This document shows, in pieces, positions 5,390-23,974 of a stretch of 64,000 nucleotides of DNA. The notes under the pieces are model-generated. The model searched no databases, was not told where the DNA came from, and saw only the letters and a program-made list of their open reading frames with translations. Position 1 is the stretch's first letter; every line of letters starts with the position of its first letter. This DNA is from an uncultured Flavobacteriaceae bacterium (GTDB lineage: Bacteria > Bacteroidota > Bacteroidia > Flavobacteriales > Flavobacteriaceae): contig CANMWN010000001.1 of NCBI GenBank assembly GCA_947501625.1, positions 381,319 to 445,318 on the forward strand, read 5' to 3'. The position numbers were made by a program, and so were the translations under genes.

Positions 5390-5859
5390 TAATTTTTAAT
5401 ATCAGATTTTCCTCCTGTTTTCTCAATCAACTTCACCTCTTTAATAACCATTTTTTGTGAAATAGATTTACACATATCATATACTGTTAGTGCAGCAACA
5501 TTTGCACCAGTTAAAGCTTCCATTTCTACACCAGTTTTCCCTTCAATTTCTACCGAACAATTAATTTCAATTTCCTCTTGATTGATGATTTCAATATCAA
5601 TATCAACTCCTTGAATTAGTAAGGGATGACACATTGGAATTAAGTCTGAAGTTTTTTTCACTGCTTGAATACCTGCAATAATAGCAGTTTGAAAAACTGG
5701 GCCTTTTTTTGTTAACAATTCATTATTTTCAAAATGAGAAATTACTTCACTTCCCAAAAACATAGTTGCTCTCGCCAACGCTTTCCTTTTGGTGATTTTC
5801 TTATCACCAACATTTACCATTTTAGGTTGATTCTTTTTATTTATATGTGAAAAATCCAT
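5389..5859 (-). CDS. moaC: Cyclic pyranopterin monophosphate synthase MoaC
   Basis: 156 aa; MoaC signatures (MVNVGDK..T.R.A.A; TGVEMEALTGANVAALTVYDMCK). Confidence 0.88.
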   Translation of the reverse strand: MDFSHINKKNQPKMVNVGDKKITKRKALARATMFLGSEVISHFENNELLTKKGPVFQTAIIAGIQAVKKTSDLIPMCHPLLIQGVDIDIEIINQEEIEINCSVEIEGKTGVEMEALTGANVAALTVYDMCKSISQKMVIKEVKLIEKTGGKSDIKN

Positions 5860-14451: not shown

Positions 14452-15766
14452 CTTTTTCAGTTGGGTTTATGGTCACTTTCACCTGTTTTAATCTGCGTTT
14501 ATCAACTGCTTCAACTTTAAACGCTAGATTATTAAACTTTATTACTTCTTTTACTTTCGGAAACTTTCCTGAGATTTCTAATATAAAACCAGCCAAAGTT
14601 TCGGTTTCACCTTTATCTTCTTCGAAGAGTTCTTCTTCAATATCTAAAACTTTAGAAAAGTCTTTGATAGATGTTTTTCCGTCAAATACGTAATTATGTT
14701 CATCAATCTTAGAATAAGACAAATCATCGTCATCAAATTCGTCAGAAATATCTCCAACAATTTCTTCGATGATATCTTCTAATGTTACTATGCCACTTGT
14801 TCCGCCATATTCATCGACAACAATAGCAAGGTGAATCTTTTTTTCCTGAAATTCTTTTAATAAATCATCTAATTTCTTGTTTTCAGGAACATAAAATGGC
14901 TCTCTCAACAACTTTTGCCATTTAAAATTCTTTTTATTCAAATGTGGCAATAAATCTTTGGCGTATAAAACACCAACAATTTCGTCAACCGATTCATGAT
15001 AAATAGGATTTCTAGAAAATCCGTTTTTAACAATCTGAGCAACAACATTTTCATAAGATTCATCATCGGCAATTGCAAACATATCAATTCGAGGTTTCAT
15101 AATCTGAACCGTCTCAGTGTTCCCAAAATTTACAATTCCCTCTAAAATTTTTTGTTCATCATCAGTTGTAGCATCATCGGAAGTTAATTCCAATGCTTGT
15201 GATAATTTTTCGACTGATAAGTTTGTTTGTTTTTGTCCCAATCGATTTTCAACAAAGTTGGTCAAGCTCATTAACGGAACACTAAAAGGTGTCAATACCT
15301 TATTCAAAAAGTTAATTGGCGTAACCATAAAAGTTGCTAATTTCATAGCATTTCGAGTTGCATATACTTTTGGCAAAACCTCACCAAACAACAAAATTAA
15401 AAAGGTTACTAAACCAACTTCAATAGCAAAACGCAAATACGTATTTTCAATACTACTAAATATTTCTTCGCCCAAAAAAGCAAATACCAACACAATTAAA
15501 ATATTGATAAAATTATTGGATATAAGTATGGTTGCTAATAGTTTTTTGGGATTTTCAAGCAATTTTACAACCGTCTGTTGTTTCTTAGATTTTGAATTGG
15601 CTGCTTCGTCTAAATCAGTTTGAGAAAGTGAGAAAAAAGCAACTTCAGTACCTGAAATAAATGCTGAACACACCAATAAAATGAACAAAACAATAAACCA
15701 TAACAAGATTATCTTGTTAAATAGTAGGAGTGAAAGAGAAAATAAACTCGAGGGTTCTGGATCCAA
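14441..15766 (-). CDS. gldE: Gliding motility protein GldE (DUF21 + tandem CBS + CorC/HlyC transporter-associated domain)
   Basis: 441 aa; N-terminal four-TM DUF21, CBS pair, C-terminal CorC_HlyC domain (GxxxTLAGFILE.....P). The family is also known as a hemolysin-C / CorC Mg/Co efflux family. Confidence 0.75.
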   Translation of the reverse strand: MDPEPSSLFSLSLLLFNKIILLWFIVLFILLVCSAFISGTEVAFFSLSQTDLDEAANSKSKKQQTVVKLLENPKKLLATILISNNFINILIVLVFAFLGEEIFSSIENTYLRFAIEVGLVTFLILLFGEVLPKVYATRNAMKLATFMVTPINFLNKVLTPFSVPLMSLTNFVENRLGQKQTNLSVEKLSQALELTSDDATTDDEQKILEGIVNFGNTETVQIMKPRIDMFAIADDESYENVVAQIVKNGFSRNPIYHESVDEIVGVLYAKDLLPHLNKKNFKWQKLLREPFYVPENKKLDDLLKEFQEKKIHLAIVVDEYGGTSGIVTLEDIIEEIVGDISDEFDDDDLSYSKIDEHNYVFDGKTSIKDFSKVLDIEEELFEEDKGETETLAGFILEISGKFPKVKEVIKFNNLAFKVEAVDKRRLKQVKVTINPTEKDEN

Positions 15767-15788
15767 TTAATAATTGATTTAATTAAAC

Positions 15789-16220
15789 TTAAAACGGTAA
15801 ATCATCATTTTCTTCAACAACATTTTGATTTTCCACATTTTTTGGCTGACTTACAGGTTGAGAAGGCGTATTTCCTAATTCTCTTTTGGTAGATAAAAAT
15901 GTCATATCAACTACATGAATTTCGGTTGAATAGCGCTTCACTCCATCTTCACCTTCCCACTGTCTGGTTTTTATTCTACCTTCACAATATACTTTATCAC
16001 CTTTGGTCAAATATTTTTCACAAATTTCAGCCAATTTATTTCTTACAACTACATTGTGCCATTCGGTAGTTGTAATTTTTTCACCTGTTTTTTTATTGGT
16101 GTATGATTCGTTAGTTGCCACAGGAAATCTACCAATAGAATTCTTATCGTCAAAATAATGCATTTTCACTTCATCTCCCAAATGTCCTATCAACATTACT
16201 TTATTTAAGGTTCCTGCCAT
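15789..16220 (-). CDS. ssb: Single-stranded DNA-binding protein
   Basis: 143 aa; OB-fold core (MAGTLNKVMLIGHLG.....; TEWH.VV....LAE....YL.KG..V..EG...TR.WE...G..R..TEI) and an acidic C-terminal tail ending DDLPF. Confidence 0.92.
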   Translation of the reverse strand: MAGTLNKVMLIGHLGDEVKMHYFDDKNSIGRFPVATNESYTNKKTGEKITTTEWHNVVVRNKLAEICEKYLTKGDKVYCEGRIKTRQWEGEDGVKRYSTEIHVVDMTFLSTKRELGNTPSQPVSQPKNVENQNVVEENDDLPF

Positions 16221-16497
16221 AACTATTTATTGTTTTAAATATCAAAAATACTAAAAATATCAATTGGTGAGAAAAAAGTAATTGTGATAATGTCATTTTG
16301 AGCACAGTCGAAAAATCTTTTTAAAGATTCTTCATTTCATTCAGAATAACAATTGACTTTGTAACTTATTCTCACTAACTTTACCTATCGGACGATAAAA
16401 TCAATTGAAACTGAATTTATCTTAAACCATTAGGCAAAATATAACCAAAACCATCTAAAAAAATAGAAATAATAAAGATACCAGAATATTGATTATG

Positions 16498-16515
16498 CAT
16501 TACGATATCGTAATG
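16498..16515. repeat. 18-bp perfect palindrome cattacgat|atcgtaatg in the 470-bp AT-rich non-coding region upstream of the RT gene
   Basis: Exact dyad symmetry; followed 3 nt later by a second hairpin aatcct-aaagtg-aggatt (16519-16536). It lies about 180 nt upstream of the RT start codon. Confidence 0.75.
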
Positions 16516-16692
16516 TCAATCCTAAAGTGAGGATTTAAATGAAGTTGACTCTTTTTAGATTAACTTTTAATTATTATATCTTTTAAGTTCAAATTATTTA
16601 TAATACTAATATATTTATAATATAATCTCGCTTTTAATTCTTATTAATTAAATTATGATTTATAACTTATTAAAGTTCATACACAAGAGAAT

Positions 16693-18387
16693 ATGCCTGG
16701 TATCTTTTTAGATGAAATTTCCCGAGAAAAAGTAGTTCAAAAATTTAATAATATTAGTTCCATTAATGAATTTGCTTCACTTCTAAATTTTATAGAGAGG
16801 AATAACACTCTTCTTCTAGATAAAAAGAAATTCACACCAATTAACTCAAAGTATTTATACCATTTATCAATAACTAAAGACAAAAGATATAAAGAGTTCA
16901 GTATCTCCAAAAAAAGTGGAAAAGAAAGAAAAATTGAATCACCAGATGAACTCTTGAAAAGGGTACAAAAACTAATTAATTTTTTATTGCAAGTTATTTT
17001 CGAACCATATTCACATTACAGTTCAAATGGCTTTTTGTTTGGAAAAGGAATCATAAGGAATGCAAAACCTCACATTAATAAAAAATATGTTTTAAATTTA
17101 GATATTAAAGATTTCTTTCCATCAATAAACTTTAGAAGAATAAAAGTGGTTTTAGAATTAAACCCATTCAACTTGAAGGATGAAAGAGAAAGAATATCTT
17201 TTCTAATAGCCAATATTTGCACTTATAAAAATCATCTTCCGCAAGGGGTTCCAACTTCTCCTATTTTATCCAATATTGTAACACAAAGATTAGATAGAAA
17301 ATTAACAAAAGAATGTTTAGGTTTAAATATTAAATACACTAGATATGCCGATGATTTAACATTTTCAAGTAATCAGAATATCCTTAACTCTAGTTTTATT
17401 AAAAAGGTTGAACAAATTGTTCAATCTGAAAACTTTGAACTTAACAACAATAAAACAAGACTGCAAACTTCTATGCAAAGGCAACAGGTTACAGGATTGG
17501 TAGTAAACGAAAAGTTAAATATTAAAAGAGAATATTTACAAAAAGTTAGAGCAATGCTCAACAACTGGGAAAAAGGAGGGTTGAATTACGCAGAACTTAT
17601 TTTTAGAAAGCATCAACCAATTGAAAAGAAAGGATATCCTTTTAAGAATGTCTTATTAGGTCATATTTCATTTATTAAACAAATAAAGGGCGCCGAAAAT
17701 AACATCTCCTTAAAACTAATAGAAAAATATACTTTATTAAATAACTTAATAGATTATAGTTTTATAAAAAATAAAGCCGTAAAAGAGAAGTTAATTAGTG
17801 ACAACCATAAAATGGAACAAATACCATTATTAAACAATCAAACTGAAAACGATAAATTTATATCCTTTTGCACTTCTGCTTTTCATCAAATAGAAAACTT
17901 GTTAAATTATTATTACTGGTCAAAATTCAAATTTATTGACTTACTTGAACACCTTTTATTAAATAACCCATCATTTAAGAAGAGGTATAAAAATCTTGAT
18001 AATGCAAAAAATAATTTTAAAAAAATAAGTGAACTGAATATAAATTTAATAGTTTATTTATATGAAAAAGAGTTCTTTTTTGACAAAAAAATATACTACA
18101 AACAAGAAATAACCAAATTAAGAGAAATAAGAAATGATGATTCACATAGATGTTCTGTCATTGATGTTAACAAAGACGAAATCAATAATGAATATGCTAA
18201 GTTAGAAGCAAAAAAAATTGATTTTAAAAAAAGAGGAAAAAATCTAGTATACAGTAACAAGGAGAAAAAGTTTATTTTAAAGTATGAATCTTTTCTTTTT
18301 TTAGAAAACAAGAATTATAAGGAAGTTAGACGCATTTTAAAAGATATTACACTAAATATTAAAAATACTTTGCCTAACAACGTATAA
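16693..18387 (+). CDS. Retron-type reverse transcriptase (Ec86-like RT core) with a ~250-aa C-terminal extension carrying a HEPN-like Rx4H motif
   Basis: 564 aa. The RT core aligns closely with Ec86 RT: domain 1 KKSGKERKIESP; retron-specific NAxxH (RNAKPH); domain 2 LNLDIKDFFPSI; domain 4 LPQGVPTSPILSNI; domain 5 YTRYADDLTFSS (Ec86: YTRYADDLTLSA); domain 7 QQVTGLVVN (retron VTG). About 290 aa follow the VTG motif (Ec86 has about 70), including ..LREIRNDDSHR.. = R-N-x3-H. GC content is lower than in the flanking genes. Confidence 0.85.
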   Translation: MPGIFLDEISREKVVQKFNNISSINEFASLLNFIERNNTLLLDKKKFTPINSKYLYHLSITKDKRYKEFSISKKSGKERKIESPDELLKRVQKLINFLLQVIFEPYSHYSSNGFLFGKGIIRNAKPHINKKYVLNLDIKDFFPSINFRRIKVVLELNPFNLKDERERISFLIANICTYKNHLPQGVPTSPILSNIVTQRLDRKLTKECLGLNIKYTRYADDLTFSSNQNILNSSFIKKVEQIVQSENFELNNNKTRLQTSMQRQQVTGLVVNEKLNIKREYLQKVRAMLNNWEKGGLNYAELIFRKHQPIEKKGYPFKNVLLGHISFIKQIKGAENNISLKLIEKYTLLNNLIDYSFIKNKAVKEKLISDNHKMEQIPLLNNQTENDKFISFCTSAFHQIENLLNYYYWSKFKFIDLLEHLLLNNPSFKKRYKNLDNAKNNFKKISELNINLIVYLYEKEFFFDKKIYYKQEITKLREIRNDDSHRCSVIDVNKDEINNEYAKLEAKKIDFKKRGKNLVYSNKEKKFILKYESFLFLENKNYKEVRRILKDITLNIKNTLPNNV

Positions 18388-18572
18388 AATTAATTGCTAG
18401 TTTTAGCCTACTTACGAAAATCCTTGCGAATTTTCTATTTGGTTTGTATTTGCTAAATTAGTTACTTAAACTACGCAACTAATCTTATACAAAACCGTTG
18501 AAGCACATTCAGCAAAGTTGAACTTTTGTTTCTTCGTGCTTCGCACTCCCATCCCAAAAGATTGTGCTTCAA

Positions 18573-18847
18573 CAGACCTGCTAAACCAAATTATTTAGTA
18601 TAGTGATATTTAAAATTAATATCACCTTTGCTGGGCATCGAGCCAAAACGATGCACCAACTTTTACTAAACATAATTTGGCTCTGCAATTTTTGCTCCCA
18701 ATAATCGAAATTTGGCAAATAACGCAAGACTCGCTTGCTATTCGATAAATTATTATCAGATTGATATAGGAAGTCTAATATCTGATAATAATTGCCCAAA
18801 TTCCTTATATTTACTCAAAAATTACAGAACTACGTTTAGCAGGTCTG
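18573..18847 (+). ncRNA. Candidate retron non-coding RNA (msr-msd) or small TIR-bounded element: 275 bp flanked by perfect 14-bp inverted repeats, multiple internal hairpins
   Basis: cagacctgctaaac (18573-18586) and gtttagcaggtctg (18834-18847) are exact reverse complements (a1/a2-like). The interior has hairpins gtgatatt/aatatcac, gcatcg/cgatgc, atcgaa[gcaag..cttgc]ttcgat, and a 14-bp perfect stem aattattatcagat/atctgataataatt (18748-18761 / 18780-18793) near the 3' end, as expected for an msd stem. It lies downstream of the RT and ends 28 nt before the mutY stop. Confidence 0.35.
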
Positions 18848-18875
18848 ATACATAAAATTATACTATACGCCATAA

Positions 18876-19919
18876 TTATGTGATTTTGATAAATTGTTCA
18901 ATAAAACTATCTATCAGTCTTGGTACTGGAAAATCATGAATATTTTTCCAATCAATAATTAAATCTTTTTTAGTTGTTTTCAAAATCCAAAAATGCGTGT
19001 ATAAATGTTGGTGAGATAGTTTATGTACAATTTCTTGCGAGTTATATAAACTCAATTCATACATTTCTTTTCCAACTATTTTTTTGAATTGCATATCTTT
19101 TGCCAACTCATTTTTATCAATAGTTTTGTCAGTTTCAATCAAAGGAAACTCATATAATCCTTGCCAAATTCCTTTCTGTGTTCTTTGATTTAAAATAGTC
19201 TTATCGTCAGGAGTAACAACAACCAAATAATTAAAGTATCGTTTCTTTATCTTAATTTTCTTCTCCTTGCAAGGCAATTCTTTGATTTTCTTTTTCTCAA
19301 GTGCAATACACTTATCATTCAGCGGACAAATATCACAGTCAGGATTTTGAGGTTTACACATTCTTGCACCAAACTCCATAATCGCTTGATTATGAGTCGC
19401 AGAATTTTTAACATCAATTAATTCTTGCGCCAATTCTTTAAAATACTTAATCCCTTTGGTTGAATTTATTGCCAAGTCAACACCATAAAAACGTGCTAAC
19501 ACTCTATATACATTACCATCAACTACTGCAGTTGGTTCATCAAAACAAATAGAAGCAATTGCCGAAGCTGTATAATCTCCTACTCCTTTTAACTTTAGTA
19601 TTTCTTTATAAGTAGCAGGAAAATTCCCGTTTAACTCCTTAACAATATAGTTGGCAGAGAAGTGTAAATTTCGTGCTCTAGAATAATAACCTAATCCTTG
19701 CCATAATTTTAGCACTTCTTGAATATCGGCATTAGCCAAATCAAAAACTGTTGGATATTTTTCTATAAAATTCAAATAATATGGCAGTCCTTGATCTACT
19801 CGAGTTTGCTGTAAAATAATTTCGGACATCCAAATAAAATATGGATTGGTCGTTTGCCTCCAAGGCAAATCTCTTTTATTGTCTAAGTACCAATTTATGA
19901 GAATGTTAGAAAAATTCAT
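18876..19919 (-). CDS. mutY: A/G-specific adenine DNA glycosylase MutY
   Basis: 347 aa; HhH-GPD glycosylase core with the 4Fe-4S cluster loop (C.....C..C.L...C) and a C-terminal NUDIX-like domain. Confidence 0.9.
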   Translation of the reverse strand: MNFSNILINWYLDNKRDLPWRQTTNPYFIWMSEIILQQTRVDQGLPYYLNFIEKYPTVFDLANADIQEVLKLWQGLGYYSRARNLHFSANYIVKELNGNFPATYKEILKLKGVGDYTASAIASICFDEPTAVVDGNVYRVLARFYGVDLAINSTKGIKYFKELAQELIDVKNSATHNQAIMEFGARMCKPQNPDCDICPLNDKCIALEKKKIKELPCKEKKIKIKKRYFNYLVVVTPDDKTILNQRTQKGIWQGLYEFPLIETDKTIDKNELAKDMQFKKIVGKEMYELSLYNSQEIVHKLSHQHLYTHFWILKTTKKDLIIDWKNIHDFPVPRLIDSFIEQFIKIT

Positions 19920-20077: not shown

Positions 20078-20368
20078 ATGACAAAAGCAGAAATTGTATC
20101 GAGTATTTCAGAAAAATCAGGTATTGAAAAAGGTGATGTTTTAGCAACAGTTGAGGCATTTATGGACGAAGTAAAAGATTCTTTAGAAAACGGTGAGAAT
20201 GTATATTTAAGAGGATTTGGAAGTTTCATCATCAAGACAAGAGCTGAAAAAACTGGAAGAAATATTTCTAAGAATACAACAATAAAAATTCCTGCTCATA
20301 ATATACCTGCTTTCAAACCTGCAAAAGTGTTTGTAGAAGGAGTAAAGAGTAAAGTAGCTGTAAAATAA
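20078..20368 (+). CDS. hup: DNA-binding protein HU
   Basis: 96 aa; canonical HU/IHF sequence (MTKAEIV..I......K.D....V.AF.D.V...L..GE.V.L.GFGSF....RA...GRN..). Confidence 0.92.
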   Translation: MTKAEIVSSISEKSGIEKGDVLATVEAFMDEVKDSLENGENVYLRGFGSFIIKTRAEKTGRNISKNTTIKIPAHNIPAFKPAKVFVEGVKSKVAVK

Positions 20369-20405
20369 TTATAGCATTATAACAATTTAAAAATAGTATA
20401 GAATT

Positions 20406-20498
20406 ATGCCAAGTGGTAAAAAAAGAAAAAGAGCTAAGATTTCTACGCACAAGCGTAAAAAGAGAGCAAGAGCTAACAGACACAAGAAGAAGAAGTAA
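20406..20498 (+). CDS. 30-aa extremely basic micro-protein (MPSGKKRKRAKISTHKRKKRARANRHKKKK); possible ribosome-associated peptide
   Basis: ATG at 20406 and TAA at 20496-20498, 38 nt after hup. It is not in the ORF track because it falls below the length cutoff. It is 60% Lys/Arg. The function call is speculative. Confidence 0.3.
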   Translation: MPSGKKRKRAKISTHKRKKRARANRHKKKK

Positions 20499-20649
20499 GT
20501 TTTAACTTACTTTTTCTTTTATTAGAAAAAACAAACGTTCTTTGAAAATGAAACTTTAAAAACATTAAAGTTTCTACAGGTTAAAACCCTGTGAAAATTT
20601 ATAAACCAATCTATATAGAAATTTTATATAGATATAAAACAAACTCGGA

Positions 20650-22182
20650 GTGAAGACAGAACTAATAATAAGATCCGGTTCCTCTGATATTGATTTTGCC
20701 TTATTAAAGGATGGTAAACTTATTGAATTAAATAAGGAAACAAATGATAACAAAATCTCGGTTGGAGATATTTTCCTTTCCAAAATTGGAAAGACTCTTA
20801 CTGGATTAAACGCAGCTTTTGTAAATGTAGGCTACCAAAAAGATGGTTTTTTACATTATCATGATTTAGGTGCACAGTTATCATCGCTTTCCAAATTCAT
20901 TAAAGGAGTAAACACAGGCAAACAAAAAGATTTCACTTTAAAAAATTTCCATTTTGAAAAAGATATTGATAAAAATGGAAATATCAATGATGTACTTAAA
21001 ACAGGACAAGATTTATTGGTTCAGATTGTAAAAGAACCAATTTCTACCAAAGGACCTCGGCTAAATGCTGAGCTCTCAATTGCTGGTAGATATTTAGTTT
21101 TAGTTCCTTTTTCGAATCGTATTTCGGTATCACAAAAGATTGCCGACAACAAAGAAAAAGATAGATTAAAACGATTAATGAAAAGTATTAAACCTAAAAA
21201 TTTTGGAGTTATCGTAAGAACTGTTGCACAGAATAAAAAAGTAGCAGATTTAGACAAAGACTTACAGAATTCTTTAGAAAGATGGGTGGCTATGTGCAAG
21301 CAAATAAAAAGATCAAAGGCACCTACCAAAGTTTTAAGTGAATTAAACAGAGCATCTTCTATTTTAAGAGATGTATTTAATGATTCTTTCAGCAAAATTG
21401 TCGTAGATGACGAATCTCTTGCAACAGAGATTAAAGATTATCTACAAGAAATTGCTCCAGAAAAAGAATCGATAGTGAAACTACACAAATCAAGTATTCC
21501 GATTTTTGAAAAATATGGTATTGAACGCCAAATCAAAACATCATTCGGAAAAACTGTTTCTATGAGTAAAGGAGCATATTTGGTTATTGAACATACCGAA
21601 GCATTACACGTTATTGATGTAAATAGTGGTAATCGTTCTAATAAAGCCAAATCGCAATCCGATACTGCCCTTGAAGTAAATTTATTGTCGGCTACAGAAA
21701 TTGCTAGACAATTACAATTACGAGATATGGGAGGAATTATAGTTGTTGATTTTATCGATATGCACAAAAGTGAAGATCGTCAAAAACTATATGATCATTT
21801 AAGAAAAGAAATGGCGTTTGATCGTACAAAGCATAAGATTTTACCTCCAAGTAAGTTTGGATTGGTTCAAATAACTCGACAAAGAGTTCGACCAGAAATG
21901 GTTATTAAAACAAGAGAGCCAAACCCAAATCAAAATGGAGAAGTAGAAGCGCCAATTGTATTGATTGAAAAAATTGAAAATGAACTTGATAAATTAATGA
22001 GTTTCAAGAAGTATAAAAAGATTGTGCTAAATGTACATCCTTTCATTGCTTCATACCTTAAACAAGGATATCCATCTATACAAGTTAGATGGTTCCTAAA
22101 GTACAAAAAGTGGATTAAAATTTTGCCTCGTGATGCTTACCAGTATTTACAATATCGTTTTGATAGACAAAAAGATAAGTAA
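20650..22182 (+). CDS. rng: Ribonuclease G/E family endoribonuclease
   Basis: 510 aa; S1 domain followed by the RNase E/G catalytic core (DVNSG motif, Zn-link-like C-terminus). GTG start. Confidence 0.85.
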   Translation: MKTELIIRSGSSDIDFALLKDGKLIELNKETNDNKISVGDIFLSKIGKTLTGLNAAFVNVGYQKDGFLHYHDLGAQLSSLSKFIKGVNTGKQKDFTLKNFHFEKDIDKNGNINDVLKTGQDLLVQIVKEPISTKGPRLNAELSIAGRYLVLVPFSNRISVSQKIADNKEKDRLKRLMKSIKPKNFGVIVRTVAQNKKVADLDKDLQNSLERWVAMCKQIKRSKAPTKVLSELNRASSILRDVFNDSFSKIVVDDESLATEIKDYLQEIAPEKESIVKLHKSSIPIFEKYGIERQIKTSFGKTVSMSKGAYLVIEHTEALHVIDVNSGNRSNKAKSQSDTALEVNLLSATEIARQLQLRDMGGIIVVDFIDMHKSEDRQKLYDHLRKEMAFDRTKHKILPPSKFGLVQITRQRVRPEMVIKTREPNPNQNGEVEAPIVLIEKIENELDKLMSFKKYKKIVLNVHPFIASYLKQGYPSIQVRWFLKYKKWIKILPRDAYQYLQYRFDRQKDK

Positions 22183-22265: not shown

Positions 22266-22703
22266 CTACACACTTTTTATAACATTGGTAACAATTCCCC
22301 AAATCAAGAAATTATTTTCTTCGGTTATTTCAATAATTGGATAATCTGGGTTTTCAGGTTTTAACCATACTTTACTGCCATCTACTCGCAATCTTTTTAC
22401 GGTAAATTCACCATCAATAAAACAAACAGCAATTTTATTATTAGTTGGTTCTATACTTCTATCAATCACCAATAAATCCTTATCATTTATACCAGCATCA
22501 ATCATCGATTGTCCACTTACTTTCGCGAAAAAAGTCGCTTCTTTATTCTTTATCAGTTCTTCATCTAACGAGATTCTAGTTTCTCTAAAATCATCGGCAG
22601 GAGAAGGAAATCCAGCAGAAATACCTGTGTCAAAAAAAATAGCGCCATCGCTATCAGTTGCTTTTGGGTTAAAAAAAGTTAAGGGTTGTGTGTCTAATTT
22701 CAT
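22266..22703 (-). CDS. umuD: UmuD-like S24 peptidase (translesion synthesis accessory protein); start trimmed to the internal Met
   Basis: Colinear with E. coli UmuD (FPSPA.D....RI.L...LI....ATFF.K.SG.SMID.GI.D.DLL..D......N..I....DGEFTVK.L); Ser (GQSM) and Lys (KRL) catalytic dyad; no HTH. The listed ORF start at 22793 would overlap umuC; the Met at about 22703 avoids this. Confidence 0.8.
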   Translation of the reverse strand: MKLDTQPLTFFNPKATDSDGAIFFDTGISAGFPSPADDFRETRISLDEELIKNKEATFFAKVSGQSMIDAGINDKDLLVIDRSIEPTNNKIAVCFIDGEFTVKRLRVDGSKVWLKPENPDYPIIEITEENNFLIWGIVTNVIKSV

Positions 22704-22720
22704 TTTATAAAAATAAGGAA

Positions 22721-23974
22721 TTATTTTACGTTTATCACTTCGTTTATATTTGTTGTGTATTTTGGAGATAAGCGCTCTTGACGCATTTTCCAAGTGCGTT
22801 GCAAATCTTGGTTTGCAAGTTTTATTTTATCGGCTTTAAACTTTTTATTAACCTTATCAATTGCACTCATCAAAGACTTGTGCTTTGGATTTTCTTGAGT
22901 AAATAAATCTAATTGAAAATTATTTTCGGGAACCAAACCTGTAACAATAACACCTGCACGTTTATATTTTATGCCTTTTTTAAAAATTGATTCAACTGCC
23001 TCAACGGCTGCTTTACTTATGGTAAGTGATGAATTTGTAGGCTGTGAAAATAGTATAGTTTTACTTGCTCTATGCTGTTCGGTATCTTTTTTATGTCTAT
23101 GGCTACTCAGCAATATAATAATCATATAACAACTACTTTTTTGGTTACGCAATTTTTCTGCACTACTCATAGCAAACGTAGAAATTCGTTCTTTAATATT
23201 GTTTAGGTCAGAAAAAGTAGTTTCAAAACTTCGTGTAGTTGCAATGGACTTTTTGTTTTTAAGTTTGTTTAACCTTAGTGTAGGCTTGCCTAATAAGTCT
23301 TGTTGTAATTCCCACAATGTTATAGAATACGTTTTGCGAACCCATTCACTGTTCAATTGTGTAAAATCATAAGCGGTTATACAGCCTCTTGCCTTTAATT
23401 TTTTTTGCAATCTATATCCTATTCCCCAAACTTTTTCAATCGATAGCCATTTCAATGCTTTTATTCTTTTTTCTTCAGAATCTATGACACAAACTCCTTT
23501 ACTTTGTTTAAGGTTTGTACGCGCAATTTTATTAGCAATTTTACTCAGACCTTTGGTTGGTGCAATTCCTACACAAGTTGGAATTCCTGTCCATTGCAAA
23601 ATTCGCTCCCTTATTTTTAATGCTTCCTTTTGATAATCAAAATCTTTAAAACCTCTGAATTCCAAAAAAGCCTCATCAATAGAATAAATTTCAACATCTG
23701 GAGAAAATTGCCCTAAAATACTCATTACACGTTCACTCATGTCTCCATATAAGGGATAATTAGAAGAAAACACATGGATATTATTTTCACGACAAACTCT
23801 TTCCCACTTAAAAATAGGCGCACCAAAAGGCAATATTTTTTTTACCTCATCACTCATAGAAATAACACAGCCATCATTATTGGATAATATGGCGACTGGT
23901 TTATTGCGCAATTGCGGTTTAAAAACACGCTCACAAGACGCATAAAAATTATTACAATCTACAAGGGCAAACAT
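22721..23974 (-). CDS. umuC: Y-family DNA polymerase V catalytic subunit UmuC
   Basis: 417 aa; N-terminus MFALVDCNNFYASCERVF.P.L..KPV.VLSNNDGCVI is near-identical in pattern to E. coli UmuC. Confidence 0.85.
   Translation of the reverse strand: MFALVDCNNFYASCERVFKPQLRNKPVAILSNNDGCVISMSDEVKKILPFGAPIFKWERVCRENNIHVFSSNYPLYGDMSERVMSILGQFSPDVEIYSIDEAFLEFRGFKDFDYQKEALKIRERILQWTGIPTCVGIAPTKGLSKIANKIARTNLKQSKGVCVIDSEEKRIKALKWLSIEKVWGIGYRLQKKLKARGCITAYDFTQLNSEWVRKTYSITLWELQQDLLGKPTLRLNKLKNKKSIATTRSFETTFSDLNNIKERISTFAMSSAEKLRNQKSSCYMIIILLSSHRHKKDTEQHRASKTILFSQPTNSSLTISKAAVEAVESIFKKGIKYKRAGVIVTGLVPENNFQLDLFTQENPKHKSLMSAIDKVNKKFKADKIKLANQDLQRTWKMRQERLSPKYTTNINEVINVK

What the first reader, a model, noticed from the sequence alone, without database searches (positions are those of the whole stretch)
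17620..18387. C-terminal ~250-aa extension of the retron RT with a HEPN-like Rx4H motif (RNDDSH)
A typical retron RT ends about 70 aa after the VTG motif. This protein continues for about 290 aa. Near residues 475-482 sits LREIRNDDSHR, an arginine followed by a polar Asn and a His four residues later. This is the canonical HEPN RNase signature (Rx4-6H with a polar residue after the Arg) as in AbiA and Abi_2 proteins, and the surrounding sequence is predicted helical. An RT-HEPN fusion is known for AbiA-type RTs, but here the RT core is clearly retron-like. This suggests a retron whose toxin or effector is a fused HEPN ribonuclease.
Basis: inference. Interest (0 to 1): 0.7.

Follow-up and report, generated by a model that had tools for sequence, protein, structure and literature searches.

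The report
Retron reverse transcriptase fused to HEPN
This gene encodes a bacterial retron reverse transcriptase whose tail is a predicted HEPN-type RNA-cutting domain, so one protein plus its small RNA probably forms a whole anti-phage system, in an arrangement I could not find in the retron classification, databases or papers I checked.

Summary
ORF 16693-18387 (+) encodes 564 aa. It has a retron-type RT (NAKPH 123-127, YADD 218-221, VTG 266-268) followed by a ~215-aa all-helical C-terminal domain (aa ~352-564) carrying LREIRNDDSHRC. The catalytic pair is R480/H485, not R477/H482.

The element is a retron. About 260 nt upstream are conserved, with an a1/a2 stem (16474-16484 / 16697-16707) paired in 15/15 loci and compensatory changes at four positions. 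The ~1.96-kb cassette sits in different contexts in Flavobacteriaceae.

In Prevotella/Bacteroidales the same RT lineage and the same HEPN-like family occur as two adjacent genes. The RT resembles the Toprim/TIR/protease-fused retron RTs (types I-C, XII, XI). No source I checked describes an RT-HEPN retron.

Verdict: a new variant of a known kind. RNase activity, msDNA and defence are untested.

The parts
16430..16473 (+). Left edge of the conserved cassette (leader upstream of a1). Includes the TAGGCAAAATAT box shared by many loci.
   Evidence: blastn of the window against 24 related loci: similarity starts at 16426-16474 in all of them, and the flanks differ.
16474..16484 (+). a1, the 5' arm of the retron ncRNA closing stem (AAAGATACCAG).
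   Evidence: Complementary to 16697-16707. The nine core pairs are paired in 15/15 loci, with both-sides changes at 4 positions.
16485..16545 (+). Conserved msr-like part of the ncRNA, with hairpins SL1 (16497-16516) and SL2 (16518-16535).
   Evidence: Most conserved non-coding stretch in 16 loci. SL1 is recovered by RNAalifold. Both hairpins appear in the MFE fold, z = -4.2.
16546..16671 (+). Variable AT-rich central part of the ncRNA, the candidate msd template region.
   Evidence: Poorly conserved, with indels between loci. It lies between the conserved msr part and the conserved 3' box. Its assignment as msd rests on position only.
16672..16692 (+). Conserved 3' box AAAGTTCATACACAAGAGAAT immediately before a2. 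Candidate RT recognition and priming region.
   Evidence: TACAYRAGWGAATA matched in all 16 loci aligned. A related box, CATACATAAAGAAAAGAT, lies upstream of the split-system RTs.
16697..16707 (+). a2, the 3' arm of the closing stem (CTGGTATCTTT). It overlaps codons 2-5 of the RT gene.
   Evidence: In L023 and L024 the same element lies upstream of the RT start, so it is conserved as RNA and not as coding sequence.
16693..18387 (+). RT-HEPN fusion gene, 564 aa plus stop.
   Evidence: ORF list. Full-length intact orthologs in 11 of 13 genome loci. About 100 full-length clusters in the protein database, named only 'reverse transcriptase domain-containing protein' or similar.
16903..17499 (+). RT catalytic domain (aa 71-269), with NAKPH (17059-17073), YADD (17344-17355) and VTG (17488-17496).
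   Evidence: Pfam RVT_1 E 5.6e-27. PADLOC retron RT models up to 329 bits. NCBIfam retron models. Motifs verified by translation.
17500..17745 (+). RT thumb / region Y continuation (aa 270-351).
   Evidence: PADLOC RT models align to aa ~340-360. BLASTP to the split-system RT aligns through aa 349.
17746..18384 (+). HEPN-like C-terminal domain (aa 352-564). Contains the family-specific N-terminal helix with D370-N371-x-x-M374 (17800-17817).
17887..17907 (+). QIENLLN in the long helix aa 385-411. Q399 and E401 are invariant and N405 is nearly invariant. Candidate for the upstream acidic residue of the HEPN active site.
   Evidence: HEPN anatomy from PMC3710099.
18130..18147 (+). RNDDSH, the Rx4H motif (R480, N481, H485). 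Predicted catalytic residues.
   Evidence: Invariant in 140 sequences. Located at the end of helix aa 472-484 and the first residue of the following loop, as described for HEPN domains.

Best explanation
Window 16430-18400 is a compact, self-contained retron cassette. It has an upstream msr/msd-type non-coding RNA closed by an a1/a2 stem, and a single gene for a retron reverse transcriptase fused at its C-terminus to a canonical (Rx4H) HEPN domain.

Proposed mechanism:
1. The RT uses the ncRNA to make msDNA (inferred from the retron hallmarks).
2. The RT-HEPN protein assembles on the msDNA into an oligomer in which the HEPN sites are kept inactive. This is inferred by analogy with Eco2 (RT-Toprim) and type IX Kva2, and from the established need of HEPN RNases to pair two Rx4-6H sites.
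3. A phage factor that degrades or modifies the msDNA releases the HEPN domains.
4. The freed HEPN domains cut cellular RNAs, most likely tRNA or rRNA, without metal. This stops translation and aborts the infection (inferred).

Shown here: the domain architecture, the HEPN fold and motif conservation, the ncRNA closing stem, the mobility of the cassette, and a split two-gene version of the same system.

Not shown: msDNA production, RNase activity, toxicity, and defence.
For: Retron RT:
- Pfam RVT_1.
- Best PADLOC models are RT-Protease_XI (329 bits), RT-TIR_XII (316) and RT-Toprim_I-C (297).
- NCBIfam retron TIR, Ec67 and St85 models match the RT part, all below their cut-offs.
- The best PDB sequence hit of the family profile is Retron Ec67.
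- NAxxH, YADD and VTG are present. These are the motifs defined in PMC7736814.

ncRNA:
- About 260 nt upstream are conserved in 16 loci.
- The a1/a2 core of 9 bp is paired in 15/15 loci. Both-sides changes occur at 4 positions: AT/GC, TA/CG, CG/TA and AT/TA.
- The fold has z = -4.2.

HEPN domain:
- Invariant R480-N481-x3-H485, Q399 and E401.
- Model pLDDT 94.6, pTM 0.90.
- Sub-threshold Pfam hits among relatives include DUF4145 x3, HEPN_LA2681, HEPN pEK499_p136 and Ribonuc_2-5A, beside about ten unrelated single hits. Two of these carry HEPN in their Pfam name, and I take the other two to be HEPN-type from my own knowledge.
- The motif position matches the published HEPN anatomy.

Functional coupling of RT and HEPN:
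- The same HEPN-like family (743 clusters) is encoded 1-2 nt downstream of a 482-486-aa RT with the same best PADLOC models, in every place examined for three proteins.
- RT and HEPN parts are 33% and 34% identical to the fused protein.

Mobility and defence context:
- Only the ~1.96-kb cassette is shared between genomes.
- The split versions sit next to WYL, TmtA, SLFN_AlbA_2, integrase and relaxase genes.

Precedents:
- Eco2 msDNA cage and tRNA cleavage (PMC12916289).
- Type IX HEPN cleaves rRNA and tRNA after a phage exonuclease cuts the msDNA (10.64898/2026.07.14.738597).
Against: - No sequence model of any HEPN family reaches significance on this protein. The PDB sequence search finds nothing for the domain.
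- Foldseek against the PDB gave no significant hit with the first, shallower model.
- I could not inspect residue-level superposition of R480/H485 on a known HEPN active site, because model coordinates are not exposed.
- The msd part and the branching G are not identified.
- Only the a1/a2 stem and one hairpin have comparative support. RNAalifold on the MAFFT alignment missed a1/a2 because of register shifts.
- Rfam has no match.
- Several relatives carry frameshifted or truncated copies, so some copies are decaying.
- Placement with the Toprim/TIR/protease RT group rests on HMM scores, not on a phylogeny.
Confidence: 0.7

Rival explanations
1. The HEPN domain is an active RNase but serves retron biogenesis, not toxicity. 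It would process the msr/msd transcript or trim the RNA part of the msDNA.
For: The domain is covalently tied to the enzyme that handles the ncRNA. Part of the retron RNA is removed during maturation (established retron knowledge). Nothing here tests toxicity. The conserved ncRNA boxes could be cleavage sites.
Against: In the retrons studied so far, fused or adjacent enzymatic modules act as effectors: Toprim in Eco2 and HEPN in type IX. The closest RT relatives carry Toprim, TIR or protease in the same position. The closest structural neighbours are HepT-type toxins and AbiA. The split versions lie in defence/ICE contexts.
Confidence: 0.12
2. The domain has a HEPN fold but is not a nuclease. 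It acts as a nucleic-acid-binding or oligomerisation module that holds msDNA or ncRNA, and any effector function lies elsewhere.
For: Some HEPN domains are non-catalytic binders (PMC3710099). No activity data exist. The cassette contains no other gene.
Against: According to PMC3710099, non-catalytic HEPNs have lost the Rx4-6H motif. Here R, the following N and H are invariant across 140 sequences down to ~20% identity, together with an upstream acidic residue. That pattern points to catalytic constraint. A retron without an effector would lack a defence output.
Confidence: 0.1
3. The resemblance to HEPN is a generic helical-bundle match, and the domain belongs to an unrelated all-alpha family with a chance R...H motif.
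Confidence: 0.05

Closest known systems
Retron types I-C (Ec67/Eco2, RT-Toprim), XII (RT-TIR) and XI (RT-protease): 'clade 8' single-protein retrons of Mestre et al. 2020
   Same: The RT is most similar to these: they are the best PADLOC, NCBIfam and PDB hits. The architecture is the same, with the effector domain fused to the RT C-terminus and no accessory gene. The cassette is compact, with the ncRNA upstream.
   Different: The fused domain is neither Toprim, TIR nor protease. The C-terminal piece hits none of those models, and the NCBIfam scores are far below the family cut-offs (289 vs 600; 264 vs 450). The predicted chemistry is a metal-independent HEPN RNase. The same lineage also exists as a two-gene split form.
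Retron type IX (e.g. Retron-Kva2): RT + separate HEPN + winged-helix protein
   Same: A retron whose effector is a HEPN nuclease. Kva2 cleaves rRNA and tRNA after a phage exonuclease cuts the msDNA, which is the best functional precedent.
   Different: In type IX the HEPN is a separate protein paired with a WH protein, is linked to clade 7 RTs, and lacks the canonical His of Rx4-6H (PMC7736814). Here the HEPN is fused, has a canonical invariant RNx3H, has no WH partner, and the RT_IX model scores only 178 bits against 329 for XI. PADLOC matched only RT models on the C-terminal pieces, so no non-RT model, including any for a type IX effector, matched.
AbiA (Lactococcus), an Abi/UG-class RT fused to a C-terminal HEPN (PDB 8oz7)
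   Different: AbiA belongs to the Abi/UG lineage, which is phylogenetically distant from the group II intron lineage, and is reported to make untemplated DNA covalently bound to the RT. Here the RT has the retron NAxxH and VTG motifs, retron HMM hits, and an a1/a2-flanked ncRNA. No Pfam family, which would include any AbiA C-terminal HEPN model, matched.
HepT / MNT-associated HEPN toxins (5yep, 8xdj, 7ae2)

Membership tests
Retron (RT + msr/msd ncRNA) | RT with retron-specific region X (NAxxH) and region Y (VTG), plus the YxDD catalytic motif | tested here: met
   NAKPH 123-127, YADD 218-221, VTG 266-268. Definition from PMC7736814.
Retron (RT + msr/msd ncRNA) | RT sequence most similar to known retron RTs | tested here: met
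   The top 25 PADLOC hits are all retron RT models, up to 329 bits. NCBIfam retron models match. PDB hits are Ec67, Ec86, Ec83, Ec78 and Kva2 RTs.
Retron (RT + msr/msd ncRNA) | Adjacent ncRNA closed by inverted repeats a1/a2 | tested here: met
   a1 16474-16484 / a2 16697-16707. The 9 core pairs are paired in 15/15 loci, with compensatory changes at 4 positions.
Retron (RT + msr/msd ncRNA) | Branching G and msd hairpin; production of 2'-5' branched msDNA | not testable with these tools
   The candidate msd region 16546-16671 is variable, and the branching G was not assigned. This needs msDNA isolation or sequencing.
HEPN superfamily | Four-helix up-down bundle fold shared with solved HEPN domains | tested here: met
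HEPN superfamily | Conserved Rx4-6H motif with a polar residue (N/D/H) after the Arg | tested here: met
   R480-N481-D-D-S-H485. R, N and H are invariant in 140 sequences.
HEPN superfamily | [quoted passage not shown] | tested here: met
   Helix aa 472-484 ends with R480/N481, and H485 is the first loop residue. E401 is invariant in the long upstream helix. Anatomy from PMC3710099. Spatial proximity of E401 to the motif was not checked.
HEPN superfamily | Significant match to a curated HEPN-clan sequence model | tested here: not met
   No Pfam hit on the domain even at E <= 10. Only sub-threshold hits to DUF4145, HEPN_LA2681, pEK499_p136 and Ribonuc_2-5A among relatives. Membership therefore rests on fold plus motif.
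HEPN superfamily | Metal-independent RNase activity | not testable with these tools
   Needs biochemistry.
Retron type IX | Separate HEPN gene plus overlapping winged-helix gene next to a clade 7 RT; HEPN lacks the canonical His | tested here: not met
   No accessory genes lie in the cassette. RT_IX scores 178 bits against 329 for XI. The canonical His is present.
Retron types I-C / XI / XII | RT of the same clade | tested here: inconclusive
   These are the best-scoring HMMs, but no phylogeny was built.
Retron types I-C / XI / XII | C-terminal Toprim, trypsin-like protease or TIR domain | tested here: not met
   The piece aa 360-564 hits no PADLOC or Pfam model. NCBIfam whole-protein scores are far below the cut-offs.
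AbiA-type RT-HEPN | Abi/UG-class RT; Pfam AbiA C-terminal HEPN domain | tested here: not met
   The RT is retron-type. No Pfam HEPN hit. Only a structural resemblance of the HEPN part.

The most novel reading that the evidence does not exclude
This is a so-far unclassified retron type that is widespread in Bacteroidota. It occurs fused (RT-HEPN, ~100 clusters, mainly Flavobacteriaceae) and split (RT + HEPN-like protein, >700 clusters, in the places examined Prevotella corporis and other Bacteroidales and metagenome contigs). In this type a canonical HEPN RNase is the effector, and in the fused form one polypeptide plus one ncRNA senses the phage and shuts down translation. That would make it a fourth effector fusion in the Toprim/TIR/protease retron lineage, and a minimal msDNA-gated RNase.
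Probability: 0.55. Interest if true: 0.65.

Novelty: new variant of a known kind. Interest (0 to 1): 0.6.

Why it matters
Retron classification and the detection models checked here list Toprim, TIR and protease as the domains fused to this RT lineage. These were Mestre et al. 2020, PADLOC-DB 2.0 and NCBIfam 2026. HEPN appears there only as a separate, non-canonical protein in type IX.

A canonical HEPN fused to a retron RT would extend the effector range of single-protein retrons. The abundant split version in Bacteroidales, found in several human-associated Prevotella-type contigs, would fill a gap in defence annotation for Bacteroidota. These genes are currently named only 'reverse transcriptase domain-containing protein' and 'hypothetical protein'.

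It would also provide a natural fused/split pair for asking how msDNA gates an effector. Finally, it is a very compact (~2 kb) candidate for an msDNA-controlled RNase. All of this depends on experimental proof of msDNA synthesis, RNase activity and defence.

Tried and rejected
- Direct domain searches of the C-terminal part found nothing beyond the RT thumb: Pfam, PADLOC and NCBIfam.
- PDB sequence searches with the close-family profile gave only chance antibody hits. With the broad profile they gave only the RT part.
The afdb50 library was unavailable.
- Rfam had no retron or other family in 15500-19500.
- RNAalifold on the MAFFT alignment recovered SL1 but not a1/a2, because a1 was misregistered in several rows. 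I replaced it with an anchored pair count.
- The first protein search with the C-terminal domain returned only fragments of at most 315 aa. This briefly suggested a stand-alone domain or a systematically broken gene. tblastn and the later searches showed these are frameshifted or truncated copies, or contig ends, among many intact fusions.
- The search for related loci with the broad alignment failed for lack of a conserved stretch.
- The large inverted repeat downstream (18573-18586 / 18834-18847) was considered as the retron a1/a2. I rejected it because it is not conserved with the cassette in other genomes, whereas the upstream region is.
- The sigma-70 promoter and terminator scan was uninformative.
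- Literature searches for 'RT-HEPN', 'type XIV', 'C-terminal HEPN' plus retron, and Bacteroides/Prevotella plus retron plus HEPN found no description of this architecture. The supplementary tables of Mestre 2020 are not held.
Full report
**1. What is at the coordinates**

The finding lies inside one intact ORF, window 16693..18387 on the + strand, 564 aa. It sits between ssb (15789-16220, -) and mutY (18876-19919, -) in a low-GC genome. The GC content of the ORF region is ~23-28%.

Pfam sees only RVT_1, at aa 71-269. Translation confirms three motifs: NAKPH at 123-127, YADD at 218-221 and VTG at 266-268. It also confirms the string LREIRNDDSHRC at 476-487.

The Rx4H pair is therefore R480/H485, with N481 after the Arg. 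However, RT-type similarity continues to about aa 350, so the added module is ~215 aa (aa ~352-564, nt 17746-18384).

**2. Is the motif more than chance?**

On its own, barely. An R[NDH]x3-5H pattern appears in 7.5% of shuffles of the C-terminal domain. The case rests on relatives.

- A word-indexed search with the domain found eight close relatives at 44-93% identity. In all of them FxFCTxAFHQIENL, EKExxF and RxxRNDxSHRC are invariant.
- An exhaustive HMM search of 1.84 billion representatives with that alignment found 292 proteins at E <= 1e-3, 153 of them at E <= 1e-10.
- In alignments of 132 and 140 of these, with identities down to ~20%, the only invariant columns are Q399, E401, R480, N481 and H485. 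Nearly invariant are Y355, L367, D370, N371, M374, C393, N405 and R486.

**3. What fold is it?**

No curated sequence model recognises the domain. Pfam found nothing even at E <= 10. PADLOC matched only the RT thumb, and NCBIfam found nothing. PDB sequence searches gave chance hits or only the RT part.

Among 132 relatives scanned one by one, the sub-threshold Pfam hits include DUF4145 (three members), HEPN_LA2681, HEPN pEK499_p136 and Ribonuc_2-5A, beside about ten unrelated single hits. Two of these carry HEPN in their Pfam name, and I take DUF4145 and Ribonuc_2-5A to be HEPN-type from my own knowledge.

- With the 140-sequence alignment the model became confident: pLDDT 94.6, pTM 0.90, all five models above 92.
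- Further down came Csm6, sacsin HEPN, ST0689, TT1696, LsoA, RnlA, Csx1, AbiV and HepS.

In the model, R480 and N481 close the helix aa 472-484. H485 is the first residue of the loop leading to the next helix. [quoted passage not shown] The same paper describes a polar residue after the Arg, an upstream conserved acidic residue, and frequent helical inserts (PMC3710099). Here the matching features are N481, the invariant E401 in the long helix aa 385-411, and short helices at aa 414-441.

I could not inspect coordinates, so the spatial proximity of E401 to the motif is inferred.

**4. Is it a retron?**

The RT part scores best with the PADLOC models RT-Protease_XI (329 bits), RT-TIR_XII (316) and RT-Toprim_I-C (297). 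All 25 top hits are retron RT models. NCBIfam gives the retron TIR, Ec67 and St85 models for the RT part, all below their family cut-offs. The family profile's best PDB hit is Retron Ec67. NAxxH and VTG are the retron-specific regions X and Y (PMC7736814).

Upstream, about 260 nt (16430-16692) are conserved in all related loci, while the flanks differ. Within this region:

- a1 (16474-16484, AAAGATACCAG) pairs with a2 (16697-16707, CTGGTATCTTT), which overlaps RT codons 2-5.
- In 15 loci the nine core pairs are always paired. Both sides change at four positions: A-T/G-C, T-A/C-G, C-G/T-A and A-T/T-A.
- In L023 and L024 the same a2 lies upstream of the RT start, so it is constrained as RNA.
- Between the arms lie a strongly conserved 5' part with two hairpins (16497-16516, 16518-16535), a variable AT-rich middle, and a conserved 3' box (16672-16692).
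- The whole region folds with z = -4.2.

Rfam has no match. The branching G and the msd hairpin are not assigned.

**5. Distribution and the split form**

Intact full-length fusions occur in Polaribacter (99% identical), Tenacibaculum discolor, Psychroserpens, Flavivirga, Flavobacterium, Salegentibacter, a Bacteroidales MAG and a Cyclobacteriaceae MAG. About 100 full-length clusters are in the protein database. They are annotated only as 'reverse transcriptase domain-containing/family protein' or 'RNA-directed DNA polymerase'. Only the ~1.96-kb cassette is shared between genomes.

Some copies are broken:

- An extra A in an A5 run splits RT and HEPN in four Tara assemblies.
- A 13-nt deletion breaks the gene in L001.
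- Only the HEPN part remains in L007/L008.

Most of the 292 family representatives are not fusions. They are 220-320-aa proteins. A search with one of them found 743 clusters, all unnamed, including Prevotella corporis and Bacteroidales.

In every place examined for three such proteins, the gene lies 1-2 nt downstream of a 482-486-aa RT. Those RTs have the same best PADLOC models as the window RT. Their RT is 33% identical to the window RT across aa 9-349, and their HEPN partner is 34% identical to the window domain. An ncRNA-like leader with a related 3' box precedes these RTs. The neighbours include WYL, TmtA, SLFN_AlbA_2, DprA, integrases and a relaxase.

So the same RT lineage and the same HEPN-like family occur fused or as adjacent genes. 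This is classic evidence that they work together.

**6. Mechanism**

The points shown here are the architecture, the HEPN fold and motif, the closing stem, the cassette mobility, and the fused/split pairing. The rest is inferred:

1. The RT makes msDNA from the ncRNA.
2. The RT-HEPN assembles on the msDNA so that the HEPN sites are inactive.
3. Phage interference with the msDNA frees them.
4. The HEPN then cleaves tRNA, rRNA or mRNA and halts translation.

The precedents are two studied retrons. In Eco2 (type I-C RT-Toprim), a trimer is caged by msDNA, phage DenB starts msDNA decay, and tRNAs are then cut (PMC12916289). In type IX Retron-Kva2, the HEPN active site is enclosed by the WH protein and msDNA, and a phage exonuclease triggers rRNA and tRNA cleavage (10.64898/2026.07.14.738597). 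That HEPN RNases normally need two Rx4-6H sites brought together is established knowledge. It implies this protein must oligomerise.

Rivals:
- an RNA-processing role in msDNA biogenesis (0.12)
- a non-catalytic binding or oligomerisation module (0.10)
- a generic helical bundle unrelated to HEPN (0.05)

**7. Comparison with what is known**

Mestre et al. 2020 list three domains fused to clade 8 retron RTs: Toprim (I-C), TIR (XII) and protease (XI). HEPN appears only in type IX. There it is a separate protein that lacks the canonical His and is paired with a WH protein on clade 7 RTs.

AbiA is an RT-HEPN fusion, but of the Abi/UG class.

PADLOC-DB 2.0 and NCBIfam 20.0 have no model for this domain or architecture. 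Full-text searches found no description of a retron RT-HEPN fusion or of the split Bacteroidales system. The literature library is incomplete, and the supplementary tables of Mestre 2020 are not held. Prior mention elsewhere therefore cannot be excluded.

**8. Verdict**

This is a new variant of a known kind: a retron with a canonical HEPN domain as fused effector, and a widespread split sibling. It is not a new principle, because HEPN effectors in retrons and RT-HEPN fusions in Abi systems are both known.

- Interest: 0.6.
- Confidence: ~0.9 that the domain is a HEPN fold with a conserved Rx4H site.
- Confidence: ~0.9 that the element is a retron.
- Confidence: ~0.7 for the full effector mechanism.

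Noticed in passing
window 18388-18875: The spacer between the RT-HEPN stop and mutY holds three features. (a) A 63-nt element (18417-18479) is also found downstream of the homologous cassettes in L001 (84%) and L002 (74%). Together with the last RT codons (18376-18499), it also occurs 2 kb upstream of the cassette in L021. (b) A hairpin at 18497-18510 / 18560-18573. (c) A perfect 14-nt inverted repeat, CAGACCTGCTAAAC, at 18573-18586 / 18834-18847, enclosing ~250 nt. This could be the right end of the cassette, a remnant, or a small mobile element. It is unexplained.
   Followed up: partly
L003-L006 (~1481-1521), L001 (~5824-5845), L007 611-1309, L008 184-882: Broken copies in relatives. Four independent Tara assemblies have A6 instead of A5 at aa ~283, which gives overlapping RT (288 aa) and HEPN (275 aa) ORFs. 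L001 has a 13-nt deletion at aa ~201. L007/L008 retain only the HEPN part, with no RT similarity in the 610 nt upstream in L007 (L008 has only ~180 nt upstream before the contig end), next to an LRR protein and DUF6088 + AbiEii. I did not test whether the homopolymer shift is decay, phase variation or a sequencing artefact.
   Followed up: partly
L025-L034 (e.g. L025 3539-5903; L033 3550-5951): A split version of the system occurs in Prevotella corporis and other Bacteroidales and metagenome contigs. A retron RT of 482-486 aa (with ~100 aa beyond the thumb) is immediately followed by a 300-316-aa HEPN-like protein. That protein carries ~60 extra N-terminal residues and a ~70-aa C-terminal tail that looks beta-rich (GxVSSxLPGxxFIKI...). 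The pair lies downstream of a WYL protein and next to TmtA, SLFN_AlbA_2, DprA, integrases and a relaxase. The extra regions were not analysed.
   Followed up: partly
P0064 (784 aa): An RT-HEPN fusion with a further ~300-aa C-terminal region of unknown nature. P0375, P0379 and P0383 (641-771 aa) are related RTs carrying PF22561 instead of the HEPN domain.
   Followed up: no
window 16430-16443 and the same position in L015-L017, L021, L022: A conserved GTTAGGCAAAATAT box marks the left edge of the cassette in many genomes. It could be a promoter element or part of an insertion target. The sigma-70 scan was uninformative for this Bacteroidota sequence.
   Followed up: no
window 22266-23974 (-) and 20078-22182 (+): Ordinary neighbours: a umuD/umuC-like pair, an HU-like protein and an RNase E/G-like protein. 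There is no defence island around the cassette in this genome, unlike the split versions.
   Followed up: no
P0008: JGI names this HEPN-only fragment 'predicted RNase H-like nuclease (RuvC/YqgF family)'. Nothing seen here supports that name.
   Followed up: no
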